58,790 nt of DNA from Escherichia phage FS2B (MW929182); one strand, 5' to 3'; shown: positions 51,432 through 57,232, counted from the first letter of the stretch. The notes: a model not told the origin generated them from the letters alone. Made by a program: numbers and translations.

Positions 51432-51686
51432 CTACGAAGTTAAGATGATTTCAGCCTTAATATATTTTTCACCAACAACCATATCACCAGAGATGACACG
51501 TAGTTCTCCAGTGCCTAGGTTAACAGCTCCGGCAGGTTGACAACCCCTACTCTTAGCTGTCATCATATAAATCTTCTGATTCTGGCACTCTTGGAGAGTG
51601 AATACATCTGACATATTTAGATCTCTGACACGGAGGATTTTTTCCTCTTTGTCTTTAACTTTAATGTTAATAATGCTCATATGCAT
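51432..51686 (-). CDS. small protein, member of tandem paralog family A
   Basis: Shares the N-terminal K...L..L..(G)DVF core with nine other small ORFs; translationally coupled. Confidence 0.45.
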   Translation of the reverse strand: MHMSIINIKVKDKEEKILRVRDLNMSDVFTLQECQNQKIYMMTAKSRGCQPAGAVNLGTGELRVISGDMVVGEKYIKAEIILTS

Positions 51687-51931
51687 TACTCCTGAACCAC
51701 TGACATACGAATCATTTCTACCTGATCGTCAAGACCTTTAACAGATAGTACACCTGTGAAAAGGTTTACCACAGGAACCCAACCACTGGCTATACGGATG
51801 TTACCAGAAGCATTTTCAACCCTCATGTAATATTGAGGAGAAGCACTTCCGTTCTGAACCACGAAAGGATTTCCAGGAATAATTGTTTCCAACTTTACCG
51901 TATTATCCTTTTTCTTTGGGATAATTTTCAT
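51686..51931 (-). CDS. small protein, member of tandem paralog family A
   Basis: MKIIPKKKDNTVKLETIIPGNPFVV; 1-nt overlaps with both neighbours. Confidence 0.45.
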   Translation of the reverse strand: MKIIPKKKDNTVKLETIIPGNPFVVQNGSASPQYYMRVENASGNIRIASGWVPVVNLFTGVLSVKGLDDQVEMIRMSVVQE

Positions 51932-52179
51932 TATGTGTTATCCACCAAAAGTTCTGCCGACACAGGAATAACTCGACAATAAATAGAAGGTGCTGTTACA
52001 TTGCCATCAGACAGACGAAGAGTGATTGATCTGTCAGAGTTGATAGTAACGTTTGGACTTGCAGACACAGACCCTTTGACATACAGGGTTGCATTGTCAG
52101 GAAACTTAAACACAGCTCCGCTGGGAAGTGAGTTGAGGTCAACCGTGGTCACTTCTTCTTTCTTGTGAGTAATCTTCAT
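51931..52179 (-). CDS. small protein, member of tandem paralog family A
   Basis: MKITHKKEEVTTVDLNSLPSGAVFKF. Confidence 0.45.
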   Translation of the reverse strand: MKITHKKEEVTTVDLNSLPSGAVFKFPDNATLYVKGSVSASPNVTINSDRSITLRLSDGNVTAPSIYCRVIPVSAELLVDNT

Positions 52180-52430
52180 TTAGAGTCCTTAATAACGTTA
52201 GCTTCAACCTTAACAGGAATAACAGAGATACCCTCAACAGGACCACTCAAACTTCCATCTTCCAGCCTGACACACACGACTCGATCTCGTGCAACTTCCA
52301 CCCAATTAGTAGATGCCGCAGTACAAACCATGTGGATTGGACCATTCTCTTCCAGTCGGAAGGTATCACCCTTCTTCAGAGTGTGGAGCTTTGCTGTCTT
52401 GATTGTTTTGTTCGACTCATTGACTTTCAT
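52176..52430 (-). CDS. small protein, member of tandem paralog family A
   Basis: MKVNESNKTIKTAKLHTLKKGDTFRL. Confidence 0.45.
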   Translation of the reverse strand: MKVNESNKTIKTAKLHTLKKGDTFRLEENGPIHMVCTAASTNWVEVARDRVVCVRLEDGSLSGPVEGISVIPVKVEANVIKDSK

Positions 52431-52438
52431 ATTGATTC

Positions 52439-52762
52439 CTATTTAAGTTTGAGGCTAATATTAAGGTGCATACATGCCCTGTTCTGTACAGCAGCATAAC
52501 TTCTACCGAGCATGTCAGCCATTCTCTGAATAGACATGAACCCAGCATTACGGATAAGGAACTGGTCTTCTTCTTCAGACCATTTAACTCGGATTGAAGC
52601 TCTTGATATTCCGAATTTAGTGCAAGCTGTATTAACAGCATTCTCCGTTACATTCATAATCTGAGCAACTTCTTGAACCGAGTACTCTTTGATTAGTCTC
52701 CGAAGATTTTCAATCTGCATAGGAGTCCATATAGTTCTTCGCGCTTTCATTTTACCACCCAT
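52439..52762 (-). CDS. Myb/SANT-like helix-turn-helix DNA-binding protein (putative transcription regulator)
   Basis: Two W-containing repeats, WTPMQIENLRRLIKEYSVQEVAQIM and WSEEEDQFLIRNAGFMSIQRMADMLGR, resemble Myb-type HTH repeats. Confidence 0.45.
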   Translation of the reverse strand: MGGKMKARRTIWTPMQIENLRRLIKEYSVQEVAQIMNVTENAVNTACTKFGISRASIRVKWSEEEDQFLIRNAGFMSIQRMADMLGRSYAAVQNRACMHLNISLKLK

Positions 52763-52973
52763 GTCGACTTTTGACTAATACGCCATCAATTATCAGATAG
52801 TGGGAATGGTTAATCATATCCGAAGACAAATCTCCGTGAGAACTATTCCATTGAAGGAAATTCATATCCTTCCAATCGGTGTAGTGCTTTTTGGCTTCTT
52901 CTTCTACCTGACTAAGAGTTACCCTTCTGAAAGGATATGGACTATACTTGATAAGTGTTTCACATTTTGTCAT
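52752..52973 (-). CDS. hypothetical protein
   Basis: Track ORF on the coding strand. Confidence 0.35.
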   Translation of the reverse strand: MTKCETLIKYSPYPFRRVTLSQVEEEAKKHYTDWKDMNFLQWNSSHGDLSSDMINHSHYLIIDGVLVKSRHGW

Positions 52974-53263
52974 ACACCCTCCAATTAAACATTTATATAA
53001 GACTTGCTTAGATAAAGATTCAATAAAATAGGGGGAGGGGACGAATCCTCCCTTATCCTATTAATTAATATTGCATGTAAGATCTAACAATCGGTTGCCT
53101 TTATAGGAATAAGCGTAAAGCCAATCCAGCACTAAACTCCCGCCCCCTTAGTGGGCTGGGTTATTAAAGGGTAACGCCCTTATGGGCTAGTTACATGAAT
53201 GTTAGTTTGATAGGAGATCTGAAGTCCTATCTCAAAGGACTCTCGTAAGAATCCTTCACGATA

Positions 53264-53395
53264 TTACTTATTCATCTCTCGTCGGCTATCTCTCCAAGCC
53301 AACCAAGTATAGGTTTTCAGTTCTTCAAAATCTTCTGGAGAGAAGAGATAATCTTTGAAGGTATCACCAAACCACTTTAAAAATTCTTTAGTCAT
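53264..53395 (-). CDS. small hypothetical protein (43 aa), not in ORF track
   Basis: Hand-translated ORF MTKEFLKWFGDTFKDYLFSPEDFEELKTYTWLAWRDSRREMNK; its ATG overlaps the upstream stop as ATGA. Confidence 0.25.
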   Translation of the reverse strand: MTKEFLKWFGDTFKDYLFSPEDFEELKTYTWLAWRDSRREMNK

Positions 53396-53652
53396 GAGTC
53401 CTCATACTTTTTGTTAGGAAGGATGAAATCCCAAAGAGCAGCCCATGATACGAGTGCTATAAATAGTACAGCAATAATAGGCCACAAGAAAACCATAGCT
53501 GCTATCTTTCCGAGGTCTGGCTCACCATCCCAACCTCTGAAACACTGATTACCTTTAACATCTATAATCTTAATCAGAACACCTGATACTACTGATCCTA
53601 TCAGATAGGCTATTAACACACTAACAAGACTGGTCACAAGGTTGATCTCCAC
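53392..53652 (-). CDS. small membrane protein (two hydrophobic segments), GTG start
   Basis: Hydrophobic segments LVTSLVSVLIAYLIGSVVSGVLI and MVFLWPIIAVLFIALVSWAALW. Confidence 0.4.
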   Translation of the reverse strand: MEINLVTSLVSVLIAYLIGSVVSGVLIKIIDVKGNQCFRGWDGEPDLGKIAAMVFLWPIIAVLFIALVSWAALWDFILPNKKYEDS

Positions 53653-55942: not shown

Positions 55943-56050
55943 CGGATGTTCGAGCAAGCTCTCCCTAGCGGTGTGGCATATGCCTGAATTAATAAGTTAA
56001 TGAGGAACACCCTCACATAGCCCTCTGATAAACACAAGGGCTATAAGTCG
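55943..56050 (-). repeat. conserved intergenic element, copy B (first copy at 50620..50750)
   Basis: Blocks CGGATGTTCGAG (55943), CTCCCTAGC (55961), CTCACATAGCCCTC (56012) and hairpin ATAGCCCT..AGGGCTAT directly after the stop of 56054..56272; sits in a 350-nt region without ORFs. Confidence 0.5.
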
Positions 56051-56053
56051 GTG

Positions 56054-56272
56054 TTACTTTTGGGATAAACACAGATCAGGTCGTGGCATAACAGTGGTTG
56101 ATAGACCGAAGACTTCAACAGAACCACTGCTCAAGTTAGCAGCCTTACACAAACCATCAGGGGTTTTATCTTCTAGCATCAGCCAGAAACGTTTATCATA
56201 AGAGAAAACATCACCACCTTTAACGTCCTCTGCATTTGCATATTTAGGATAATCAACTACTTTAATTTCCAT
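56054..56272 (-). CDS. small protein, member of tandem paralog family A
   Basis: MEIKVVDYPKYANAEDVKGGDVFSYDKRFWLM. Confidence 0.45.
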   Translation of the reverse strand: MEIKVVDYPKYANAEDVKGGDVFSYDKRFWLMLEDKTPDGLCKAANLSSGSVEVFGLSTTVMPRPDLCLSQK

Positions 56273-56282
56273 CTAATTGCCC

Positions 56283-56501
56283 TTATTGATATATAGAAAG
56301 GTGGATAAGTTTATTAACATGAGCGAAGTTAGGAAGGATTTGCATCTCATTGTTGAAGATATTAAAACAACGAACCCCGCCCTCTACAGCATAAGCAGAT
56401 TTCTGAAACAGACTGCCTCCCCACACAAATACATCATGTGTTTCAAGAGATCGTAACTGAACAGCCTCGTCAACAACCTTCTTTTCAATGTTCATATTCA
56501 C
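56283..56501 (-). CDS. small protein, member of tandem paralog family A
   Basis: VVDEAVQLRSLETHDVFVWGGSLF; 4-nt overlap with the upstream gene. Confidence 0.45.
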   Translation of the reverse strand: MNMNIEKKVVDEAVQLRSLETHDVFVWGGSLFQKSAYAVEGGVRCFNIFNNEMQILPNFAHVNKLIHLSIYQ

Positions 56502-56749
56502 TTCCGATTGGTAATTACTGCATCATGGATAACTGAAACAGGTAAGTTTGAATCTAGCTTCATTACTTGATTGGTGCTTAAACTGAGCACTACACAACCA
56601 TTCCGAAGATCAGTCTCTGACACATGTGGTGTATATAACTGAACGATCATGTAATAATCAATACATGTTGCCTTAACTTGGAATACATCACCAAGTTTCA
56701 AATCACCCACACGCAATTCTTTAGCTTTAAGGTTCAGATCAATCTTCAT
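56498..56749 (-). CDS. small protein, member of tandem paralog family A
   Basis: MKIDLNLKAKELRVGDLKLGDVFQV. Confidence 0.45.
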   Translation of the reverse strand: MKIDLNLKAKELRVGDLKLGDVFQVKATCIDYYMIVQLYTPHVSETDLRNGCVVLSLSTNQVMKLDSNLPVSVIHDAVITNRK

Positions 56750-56972
56750 CTTTAGCCTCTATGTTGGTTATGTGGAGATCATTGCGCACTTGGCAGACTT
56801 CGTTTTTGCTGATAACAATAAGCTCTCCAGAAACCACGTTAACACAATTGACGTGATAGTCAGTTGTTAATCCGGTTCTGATATAGAGAGAGCCTTTAAA
56901 ATGAAACAGGGCACCCGGCCTCATGTTATTTAAACGAAGTGTAGTATGATCAGGCTTAATATTAACTTTCAC
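56739..56972 (-). CDS. small protein, member of tandem paralog family A
   Basis: MKVNIKPDHTTLRLNNMRPGALFHF. Confidence 0.45.
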   Translation of the reverse strand: MKVNIKPDHTTLRLNNMRPGALFHFKGSLYIRTGLTTDYHVNCVNVVSGELIVISKNEVCQVRNDLHITNIEAKDED

Positions 56973-56974
56973 TG

Positions 56975-57232
56975 TTAATCCACCTTATTAGTAAGACGAA
57001 CATTATCAACTATCTGAACAACAGTATCTTTTCTCAACATTGTTACTCTATCTGAAGTAAGATCTACTACTACCTTTTTATCAGGTTTCCATTGGGCTTG
57101 ATAAACAGTTGAAGAATCGAGTTTTACTACAAGATACAACTTATTCTTATGTGGTACAGTTTCAAAAACATCACCCACTCTTAGGTCTTTAAGCTGCTTA
57201 ACCACAGGTGCTGTATTGATATCATGCTTCAC
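56975..57232 (-). CDS. small protein, member of tandem paralog family A (GTG start)
   Basis: AGGAGA RBS 6 nt upstream of GTG 57232; VKQLKDLRVGDVFETV core; track start 57394 would overlap the upstream gene by 170 nt. Confidence 0.4.
   Translation of the reverse strand: MKHDINTAPVVKQLKDLRVGDVFETVPHKNKLYLVVKLDSSTVYQAQWKPDKKVVVDLTSDRVTMLRKDTVVQIVDNVRLTNKVD

What the first reader, a model, noticed from the sequence alone, without database searches (positions are those of the whole stretch)
51432..57232. Ten-member tandem family of small paralogous proteins in the early region
Ten ORFs of 71-86 aa (51432..51686, 51686..51931, 51931..52179, 52176..52430, 53804..54025, 56054..56272, 56283..56501, 56498..56749, 56739..56972, 56975..57232) share an N-terminal core of the form K.(V/L).L..L..GD.F followed by beta-type segments. 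They are tightly packed, often with 1- or 4-nt stop/start overlaps. Such diversified paralog arrays in early regions commonly encode host-takeover or anti-defence proteins whose targets differ between copies. I do not recognise the family.
Basis: seen in the sequence. Interest (0 to 1): 0.6.

Follow-up and report, generated by a model that had tools for sequence, protein, structure and literature searches.

The report
Ten small beta-barrel early phage paralogs
A phiEco32-like E. coli phage carries ten real, diverged copies of a small, unnamed, widespread phage protein predicted to fold as an SH3-like beta-barrel; no member has a known function, and they most likely act as binding modules early in infection.

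Summary
All ten minus-strand ORFs exist. They form one family: leave-one-out HMMs recover every member, and no other ORF in the window matches. They sit as 4 + 1 + 5 genes, not one array.

The window is a Kuravirus (phiEco32-like, 95% identical to SkaterBoy_Bas90). By synteny the genes lie in its sigma70-driven early cluster.

Orthologues are under purifying selection (dN/dS 0-0.3). Copy number ranges from 3 to 10 among Gordonclarkvirinae, with slot loss and deep allele replacement.

The family is large: 984 clusters at 50% identity. It includes N4 gp21 and tandem sets in a jumbo-phage contig. Distantly related modules end flavobacterial SprT-like peptidases and repeat 9-17 times in giant phage proteins. 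Pfam, NCBIfam and PADLOC have no model; PHROGs splits it into at least nine "unknown function" families.

Function is inferred only: non-enzymatic binders of host factors. The closest published concept is the T4 GoF/MotB.1/Frd.2 "LSm-like fold" family, with no detectable sequence relation.

The parts
51432..51686 (-). Member 1 (84 aa; orthologue of phi32_95). The start is probably the ATG at 51680 (82 aa).
   Evidence: Leave-one-out HMM E = 3.6e-8. phrog_12612 E = 1.4e-41. 96% identical to the phiEco32 and SkaterBoy orthologues, dN/dS about 0.1.
51686..51931 (-). Member 2 (81 aa; orthologue of phi32_96).
   Evidence: Leave-one-out E = 1e-6. Present in all Kuravirus genomes examined at 68-98% identity, dN/dS 0.06-0.28.
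51931..52179 (-). Member 3 (82 aa; orthologue of phi32_97).
   Evidence: Leave-one-out E = 6.6e-8. BLASTP E = 7e-12 to member 4. No hit in Bas91 or LAMP; only a 28% hit in SU10; 60% in Paul.
52176..52430 (-). Member 4 (84 aa). This member was modelled.
53804..54025 (-). Member 5 (73 aa; orthologue of phi32_104). Isolated copy and the most conserved one.
   Evidence: Leave-one-out E = 4.1e-7. phrog_6570 E = 1.2e-31. 85-100% identical in six relatives. The commonest best window match among the metagenomic representatives.
56054..56272 (-). Member 6 (72 aa; orthologue of phi32_113).
   Evidence: Leave-one-out E = 2.2e-4. BLASTP E = 2.6e-10 to member 5. No orthologue in Paul or LAMP.
56283..56501 (-). 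Member 7 (72 aa from the GTG; probably 70 aa from the ATG at 56495). The most divergent copy; modelled.
56498..56749 (-). Member 8 (83 aa; orthologue of phi32_114).
   Evidence: Leave-one-out E = 2.2e-6. BLASTP E = 2e-8 to member 10. Alleles are 54-95% identical among relatives.
56739..56972 (-). Member 9 (77 aa, GTG start; orthologue of phi32_115).
   Evidence: Leave-one-out E = 5.8e-8. Only 66-69% identical to the copy in every relative examined, dS 0.8-1.0, dN/dS 0.20-0.28.
56975..57232 (-). Member 10 (85 aa, GTG start inside a 139-codon ORF).
   Evidence: Leave-one-out E = 6.2e-6. AGGAG Shine-Dalgarno upstream. Orthologues annotated at the same length in SkaterBoy and Paul. No hit in phiEco32, Bas91 or LAMP; SU10 has only a 32%-identical copy.
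52439..52762 (-). Context: HTH / sigma70-region-4-like regulator immediately upstream (in transcription order) of the four-gene block. Not a family member.
   Evidence: Pfam Sigma70_r4_2 E = 1.9e-7. Annotated 'transcriptional regulator, D5-like' in relatives.

Best explanation
The ten ORFs are real genes. They are old paralogues (35% pairwise identity or less) of one unnamed, widespread phage family of stand-alone proteins about 70-85 aa long.

Each is predicted to fold into a six-stranded SH3-like small beta-barrel. The conserved residues (MKI..., L..L..G(D)VF, Y.M.KT, (C/V)VNL.TG, V, P) are core and turn positions. The surface and the beta3-beta4 hairpin, which carries large length variation, differ between copies.

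By synteny with phiEco32 and SU10 they are transcribed leftward by host sigma70 RNA polymerase from the early promoters at the right genome end. Stop/start overlaps and Shine-Dalgarno sites suggest translational coupling.

Inferred mechanism: they are non-enzymatic binding modules. Each copy binds a different host (or phage) macromolecule stoichiometrically in the first minutes of infection, for host takeover or neutralisation of host immunity.
- m1, m2 and m5 form a conserved core set.
- The other slots are accessory cassettes gained, lost or swapped between kuraviruses.

Shown: gene reality, homology, early-cluster position by synteny, purifying selection, copy-number and allele variation. 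Predicted: the fold. Inferred: the binding function and the nature of the targets.
For: - Family reality; PHROG cross-matches.
- No conserved polar constellation. The conserved columns are hydrophobic, Gly or turn residues, apart from a partly conserved Asp (62%) and Lys (67%). Net charge is about -2 to +4, pI 4.9-9.5. No enzyme-family match.
- Early class: SU10 early genes are CDS 69-125 with sigma70 promoters between genes 120 and 121. [quoted passage not shown] YF01 early genes are gp82-122.
- Functional constraint: dN/dS 0.0-0.3 for nearly all orthologue pairs.
- Accessory behaviour: 10 copies here and in SkaterBoy; 9 in phiEco32 and SU10; 8 in Paul and Bas91; 6 in ECBP2; 3 in the 68.5-kb phage LAMP; 4 in Salmonella 7-11; 1 in N4. 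Several slots have alleles at 28-69% identity and dS above 1.
- Recurrent tandem amplification elsewhere: five adjacent genes in a 190-kb phage contig and two in another contig.
Against: - No member of the family has any experimental function.
- No partner is predicted, and no known anti-defence or takeover protein matches by sequence.
- There is no signature of positive selection, which arms-race binders often show.
- The SU10 lysate proteome did not list any member, although small proteins are easily missed.
- Only 2 of the 10 were modelled.
- Early timing rests on synteny with published phages, not on data for this genome.
- From memory, not checked here: the phiEco32 RNA-polymerase pull-downs reported only gp36 and gp79.
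Confidence: 0.5

Rival explanations
1. They are RNA- or nucleic-acid-binding small beta-barrels (LSm/KOW/Tudor-like) that tune mRNA stability, translation or transcription elongation. This is the role proposed for the T4 GoF/MotB.1/Frd.2 'LSm-like fold' early proteins.
For: [quoted passage not shown]
- A distantly related domain, rich in basic residues, ends flavobacterial SprT-like peptidases. SprT/Spartan/Wss1 proteases being DNA-associated is my background knowledge, not tested here.
Against: - Net charge is near zero and no basic residues are conserved across the family.
- There is no sequence or profile relation to GoF, MotB.1 or Frd.2.
- RNA binding of wild-type GoF itself is unproven.
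Confidence: 0.2
2. They dock onto the host transcription or translation machinery. The models are Tudor-like RNA-polymerase-interacting domains (CarD, Mfd, UvrD/PcrA C-terminal domain) and NusG KOW domains. In this reading they modulate RNA polymerase or the ribosome alongside gp79 and the phage sigma factor.
Against: - The similarity is at superfold level only, with 4-14% identity.
- Ten different RNAP or ribosome binders would be excessive.
- Copies vary freely between phages that share the same transcription strategy.
- From memory, not checked here: published phiEco32 RNAP pull-downs reported only gp36 and gp79.
Confidence: 0.1
3. They are dispensable evolutionary by-products: selfishly duplicated small ORFs, or structural or assembly proteins, with no role in host manipulation.
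For: Several slots are absent from viable relatives; LAMP keeps only three. None was detected in the SU10 lysate proteome.
Against: - Purifying selection acts on every slot that could be compared.
- 984 clusters at 50% identity across many phage groups keep the same core motif.
- Start, Shine-Dalgarno and stop architecture is conserved.
- The genes lie in the early cluster, not the late structural cluster.
Confidence: 0.05

Closest known systems
T4 GoF / MotB.1 / Frd.2 'LSm-like fold' family of Tevenvirinae early proteins (Kim et al. 2025, PMC12152347)
   Same: - Several small early proteins per genome sharing a five- or six-stranded SH3/LSm-like beta-barrel.
- goF and motB.1 deletions have wild-type burst size and latent period, and amber mutants of all three genes plate normally on non-suppressing cells.
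- Function unknown.
- The same structural neighbours: FeoA, IdeR and SloR-type SH3 domains.
   Different: - No sequence or profile similarity.
- The T4 proteins are 119-141 aa with an extra C-terminal domain. These are single-domain, 72-85 aa.
- Three copies in T4 against ten here. Here the paralogues are still recognisable by sequence.
- The CRISPRi-ART screen lists frd.2 among its 'Fit' T4 genes of unknown function.
SH3-like small beta-barrel superfold (translation-protein SH3-like, KOW, Tudor/PWWP, FeoA, VapX antitoxin, UvrD/CarD RNAP-interacting domains)
   Different: - No Pfam match. EFP_N is hit by only 2 of 130 family representatives, at E = 0.024.
- 2-23% identity to the structural neighbours.
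- An extra long N-terminal strand starting at Met1.
- No KOW signature detected by Pfam.
PHROGs 6570, 7832, 7431, 8365, 16423, 9955, 12612, 33163, 34455 (all 'unknown function'); includes N4 gp21
   Same: Direct sequence membership. N4 gp21 scores E = 2.9e-15 against the family HMM.
   Different: PHROGs treats them as separate families. Here they are shown to be one superfamily, amplified tenfold in one genome.
C-terminal domain of flavobacterial SprT-like metallopeptidases (Tenacibaculum, Cellulophaga and others; about 197 aa)
   Same: A distantly related module of about 50 aa.
- A five-repeat protein (P0095) scores E = 3e-19 against 1.84 billion proteins.
   Different: - It is cellular and chromosomal, and fused to a protease.
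- It carries a basic insert (KRGNKRRTRY) that the phage proteins lack.
- It lacks the N-terminal strand.

Membership tests
Unnamed phage small beta-barrel family (PHROGs 6570/7832/7431/8365/16423/9955/12612/33163) | Significant match to the family profile HMMs | tested here: met
   The ten members between them match nine PHROG models at E <= 0.01. phrog_6570 matches 7 of 10. Leave-one-out HMMs recover all ten.
Unnamed phage small beta-barrel family (PHROGs 6570/7832/7431/8365/16423/9955/12612/33163) | Single-domain protein of about 70-85 aa whose domain begins at Met1 (MK[IV]) and carries the core L..L..G(D)VF / Y / (C/V)VNL.TG / V | tested here: met
   Alignment A1. Column conservation over 229 sequences. 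Most listed representatives align from residue 1.
Unnamed phage small beta-barrel family (PHROGs 6570/7832/7431/8365/16423/9955/12612/33163) | Common predicted fold | tested here: met
SH3-like small beta-barrel superfold | Five or six antiparallel strands forming a small closed barrel | tested here: met
KOW / EF-P N-terminal domain families | Sequence signature detected by the Pfam KOW or EFP_N models | tested here: not met
   No Pfam hit for the ten at E <= 1. EFP_N is hit by 2 of 130 representatives, at E = 0.024.
Hfq / Sm (LSm proper) | N-terminal alpha-helix followed by a five-stranded Sm fold, with ring oligomers | tested here: not met
T4 GoF/MotB.1/Frd.2 LSm-like fold family | Sequence or profile similarity to the GoF, MotB.1 or Frd.2 N-terminal domains | tested here: not met
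   The family HMM finds nothing at goF, motB.1 or frd.2. hhalign probabilities are 0.1%, 0.6% and 0.1%.
T4 GoF/MotB.1/Frd.2 LSm-like fold family | Two-domain architecture: N-terminal barrel plus a C-terminal domain, 119-141 aa | tested here: not met
   The window proteins are 72-85 aa and single-domain.
Known anti-defence / host-takeover proteins | Homology to a characterised inhibitor (Ocr, Ard, Acr, Tad, Gad, Dmd and others) | tested here: not met
   No annotated Pfam, PHROG, NCBIfam or PDB sequence match. No dedicated anti-defence library was available, so the test is incomplete.
Known anti-defence / host-takeover proteins | Inhibition of a defence system or host process on expression | not testable with these tools
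   Needs experiments.
Defence-system components (PADLOC) | Match to a PADLOC model | tested here: not met
   No family matched at E <= 0.1.
SprT-like metallopeptidases | SprT-like (PF10263) zinc-peptidase domain | tested here: not met
   The ten have no Pfam hit. Only the C-terminal accessory module of the flavobacterial enzymes is related.

The most novel reading that the evidence does not exclude
The family is a general phage 'binder scaffold': a stable SH3-like core with variable surfaces and a variable beta3-beta4 hairpin, diversified by duplication and cassette exchange. Each copy would neutralise a different host immune effector or takeover target.

Its tenfold expansion would then help explain why Gordonclarkvirinae resist nearly all tested defence and restriction systems without any known inhibitor. 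Related modules reused 9-17 times in giant phage proteins would act as multivalent binders.
Probability: 0.15. Interest if true: 0.8.

Novelty: new variant of a known kind. Interest (0 to 1): 0.5.

Why it matters
If each copy binds a distinct host factor, this would be a compact, naturally diversified set of about ten small inhibitors or adaptors in a phage that now grows on engineered E. coli K-12 (the BASEL phage SkaterBoy/Bas90 is 95% identical).

It would give a first functional handle on a family of about 1,000 sequence clusters. That family has no Pfam model, is present in the model phage N4 (gp21) and in jumbo phages, and is distantly related to modules in flavobacterial SprT-like peptidases.

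It also offers concrete candidates for the unexplained broad resistance of kuraviruses to restriction and defence systems. Naming the family as one superfamily would tidy at least nine PHROGs and correct stray annotations such as 'DNA helicase' and 'Endolysin'.

Tried and rejected
- **Protein libraries.** Pfam (ten members and 130 diverse representatives), NCBIfam, PADLOC and a profile search of PDB sequences gave no meaningful match.
- **Spurious long hits.** In the representative search, P0128 is RCC1 repeats and P0164 is Ig_7. The ten-member HMM re-finds no domain in either of them, nor in the repeat-rich P0097. I rejected all three as repeat artefacts.
- **Related loci.** The search for related loci with the family alignment failed because no stretch was conserved enough.
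- **Consensus tblastn.** The HMM consensus found nothing in the phage or plasmid collections. BLAST with single distant members found only Gordonclarkvirinae-like records.
- **Foldseek afdb50** was not available.
- **PTXU04.** I looked at the CRISPRi-ART paper hoping PTXU04 was a kuravirus. The paper mentions neither 'Kuravirus' nor 'phiEco32' and gave no data on this family.
- **Primary phiEco32 papers.** Savalia 2008 and Pavlova 2012 are not held. I could not check whether they noted these paralogues or list per-gene timing.
- **Polyvalent-protein paper.** It does not describe this module.
- **Positive selection.** I looked for it and did not see it.
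Full report
**What the window is.**
The region 51000-58000 is 95% identical to Escherichia phage SkaterBoy_Bas90 and 93% to phiEco32. Another 140 records match, most of them Escherichia phages, and the best are phiEco32 relatives (Gordonclarkvirinae). All genes from about 20 kb to the window end lie on the minus strand, and GC skew is negative there. This fits the leftward-transcribed middle and early clusters described for phiEco32-like phages.

**Checking the observation.**
All ten ORFs are present at the given coordinates on the minus strand and translate to their stop codons. 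Pairwise BLASTP links several pairs directly:
- m3-m4, E = 7e-12;
- m5-m6, E = 2.6e-10;
- m8-m10, E = 2e-8.

- The genes form a block of four (51432-52430), one isolated gene (53804-54025) and a block of five (56054-57232), not one array.
- Only the Phe of the motif is invariant, and 'GD' occurs in 4 of 10.
- Two starts are probably 6 nt further in, at 51680 and 56495, as annotated in SkaterBoy.
- The stop/start overlaps of 1, 4 and 11 nt and the Shine-Dalgarno sequences are as described.

**Are they real genes?**
Orthologue pairs against six relatives give dN/dS of 0.0-0.3 almost throughout, similar to neighbouring non-family genes. They are protein-coding and constrained. There is no sign of positive selection.

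**Fold.**
I modelled two members with AlphaFold2 on a 93-sequence alignment.
- Member 4 gives pLDDT 85 and pTM 0.70.
- Member 7, the most divergent copy, gives pLDDT 89 and pTM 0.75. It has six strands and no helix of 4 or more residues.

This is the SH3-like small beta-barrel superfold. The scores are generic and point to no single family.

Across 229 family sequences the conserved columns are mostly hydrophobic, Gly or turn positions: M-K-I at the N-terminus, L..L..G-D-V-F, Y.M.K-T, (C/V)-V-N-L-x-T-G, V and P. The largest length variation lies in the beta3-beta4 hairpin. Net charge is -2 to +4. Nothing suggests catalysis or generic nucleic-acid binding.

**Timing.**
I have no expression data for this genome. 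The genes are syntenic with phi32_95-98, 104 and 113-115, and with SU10 gp96-98, 102, 107 and 111-114. Three published statements place these in the early class:
- In SU10 the early genes are CDS 69-125, driven by sigma70 promoters between genes 120 and 121.
- The YF01 paper places early genes at the far right of the genome, 'most hypothetical'.

**Variation among relatives.**
Family-HMM counts per genome:

| Phage | Copies |
|---|---|
| this window | 10 |
| SkaterBoy | 10 |
| phiEco32 | 9 |
| SU10 | 9 |
| Paul | 8 |
| Bas91 | 8 |
| ECBP2 (Suseptimavirus) | 6 |
| LAMP (68.5-kb Kuravirus) | 3 |
| Salmonella 7-11 | 4 |
| N4 | 1 |

Members m1, m2 and m5 are found in every Kuravirus examined, and m5 is 85-100% identical in all of them. 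The other slots are missing in some phages or hold deeply divergent alleles at 28-69% identity with dS above 1. Flanking genes are typically 93-100% identical. This pattern is old duplication plus cassette loss and exchange, not recent tandem duplication.

**Breadth of the family.**
A profile search of 1.84 billion representatives found 984 clusters at E <= 1e-3. Most listed hits are 68-89 aa proteins aligned from residue 1, and some are two-domain fusions.

By sequence, N4 gp21 is a member at E = 2.9e-15. A 190-kb phage contig carries five adjacent family genes among DNA ligase and glycosyltransferase genes, and another contig has two in tandem. Foldseek against BFVD adds uncharacterised proteins of phages infecting Erwinia, Serratia, Pseudomonas (PaP3), Proteus, Klebsiella, Yersinia, Vibrio, Aeromonas and Cronobacter. 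I did not confirm those by sequence.

Two unexpected contexts appeared.
1. The C-terminus of the roughly 197-aa chromosomal SprT-like metallopeptidases of Flavobacteriia (Tenacibaculum, Cellulophaga and others) is a distantly related module. It is present five times in P0095, which scores E = 3e-19 library-wide, and three times in P0238.
2. Four giant proteins of 1920-3223 aa hold 9-17 related modules each after iterative HMM searching. One of them, P0116, lies in a phage-like contig. The repeat HMM recognises half of the window proteins only weakly, so this link is probable rather than proven.

Pfam, NCBIfam, PADLOC and PDB sequences have no model or match. PHROGs splits the family into at least nine 'unknown function' groups.

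**Mechanism.**
The best-supported reading is a set of small, non-enzymatic binding modules made early in infection. Each would bind a different host or phage macromolecule through its variable surface. The core copies (m1, m2, m5) would do something common to all kuraviruses, and the variable slots would tune the phage to different hosts.

The identity part of this reading (real genes, one family, SH3-like barrel) I hold at about 0.95. The binder-of-host-factors part I hold at about 0.5, and anti-defence specifically at about 0.25.

The main rival is RNA or nucleic-acid binding, or docking on RNA polymerase or the ribosome. That is what the nearest structural neighbours do, and it is what was proposed for the T4 GoF family. 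Near-neutral charge and the lack of conserved basic residues argue against generic nucleic-acid binding.

One context note: Gordonclarkvirinae are reported to resist RM systems without any known modification or inhibitor, and only Fun/Z restricted Kuravirus. These genes are candidates, and no more than that.

**Comparison with what is known.**
[quoted passage not shown] Those are small early T4 proteins with an SH3/LSm-like barrel, the same FeoA/IdeR structural neighbours and no known function. goF and motB.1 deletions have normal burst size, and amber mutants of all three genes plate normally.

I found no sequence or profile relation to them. The T4 proteins are longer and have two domains. 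This is therefore a different family of the same general kind.

I found no paper describing this family or its amplification in kuraviruses.

**Verdict.**

It is a new, unnamed and widespread SH3-like domain family with a tenfold expansion in this phage. That is moderately interesting (0.5): the arrangement itself would not surprise a specialist, but it is a tractable entry point into a large block of phage 'dark matter'.

Noticed in passing
58218-58595 (-), continuing through 58610-58789 to the window end: The ORF ends in a YadA-like membrane-anchor domain (PF03895, E = 4.7e-20). Upstream the DNA is a short tandem repeat: one reading frame gives repeated 'MVKMAL', which I read as collagen-like triplets in the gene's own frame (not translated to confirm). 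It runs off the window. Relatives annotate the gene as 'tail protein' (phi32_119). A trimeric-autotransporter-like gene in a phage early region is unusual.
   Followed up: partly
57718-58107 (-): A SleB-type cell-wall hydrolase (Pfam Hydrolase_2, E = 1.7e-7) sits in the early cluster. It is 98-100% identical at protein level in six relatives, far more conserved than its neighbours.
   Followed up: partly
57222-57518 (-): This 98-aa ORF is annotated 'DNA helicase' in several relatives but has no Pfam hit. In phage EcoN5, members of the beta-barrel family are themselves labelled 'DNA helicase' and 'Endolysin'. These look like propagated misannotations.
   Followed up: partly
54804-55097 (-) and 55045-55296 (-): A second, weak paralogue pair (BLASTP E = 4e-4, 31% identity over 35 aa) whose ORFs overlap by 53 nt. 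Neither has a Pfam hit. The first has a match only in SkaterBoy and Bas91 among the six relatives compared.
   Followed up: partly
55545-55522 (-) and 53052-53033 (-): Two terminator-like GC-rich hairpins followed by T-rich tails lie on the coding strand. They split the early region carrying the family into three units: the five-gene block, the middle part with member 5, and the four-gene block. The region holds 12 terminator-like sites against 5.5 expected.
   Followed up: no
54553-54628 (-): tRNA-Arg (anticodon TCT) embedded among the early genes. It is conserved in relatives.
   Followed up: no
53621-53794 (-): A 57-aa Cys-rich ORF (CPDCGC...CKTCGDQPC) with an acidic N-terminus, possibly a zinc ribbon. 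It has no Pfam hit and is 91-98% conserved in five of the six relatives, with no hit in LAMP.
   Followed up: no
L009:9717-12281 (190-kb metagenomic phage contig); L003/L004 (giant protein P0116): Independent amplification of the same family elsewhere: five adjacent genes (one with two domains) in a jumbo-phage replication module. Separately, four giant proteins of 1920-3223 aa hold 9-17 related modules each; one of them, P0116, lies in a phage-like contig.
   Followed up: partly
L005:3583-5019 and L006:8001-9437 (Bacteroidota chromosome): A SprT-like metallopeptidase carries five C-terminal repeats of a module related to the phage family. Ordinary flavobacterial SprT-like proteins (about 197 aa) carry one copy. 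Pfam does not model this C-terminal domain.
   Followed up: partly
52439-52762 (-): An HTH / sigma70-region-4-like regulator lies directly upstream of the four-gene block. The phiEco32 copy is only 65% identical, while the other five relatives are 93-98% identical. This suggests allele exchange together with the adjacent member 4 slot, which in phiEco32 is 28% identical.
   Followed up: no
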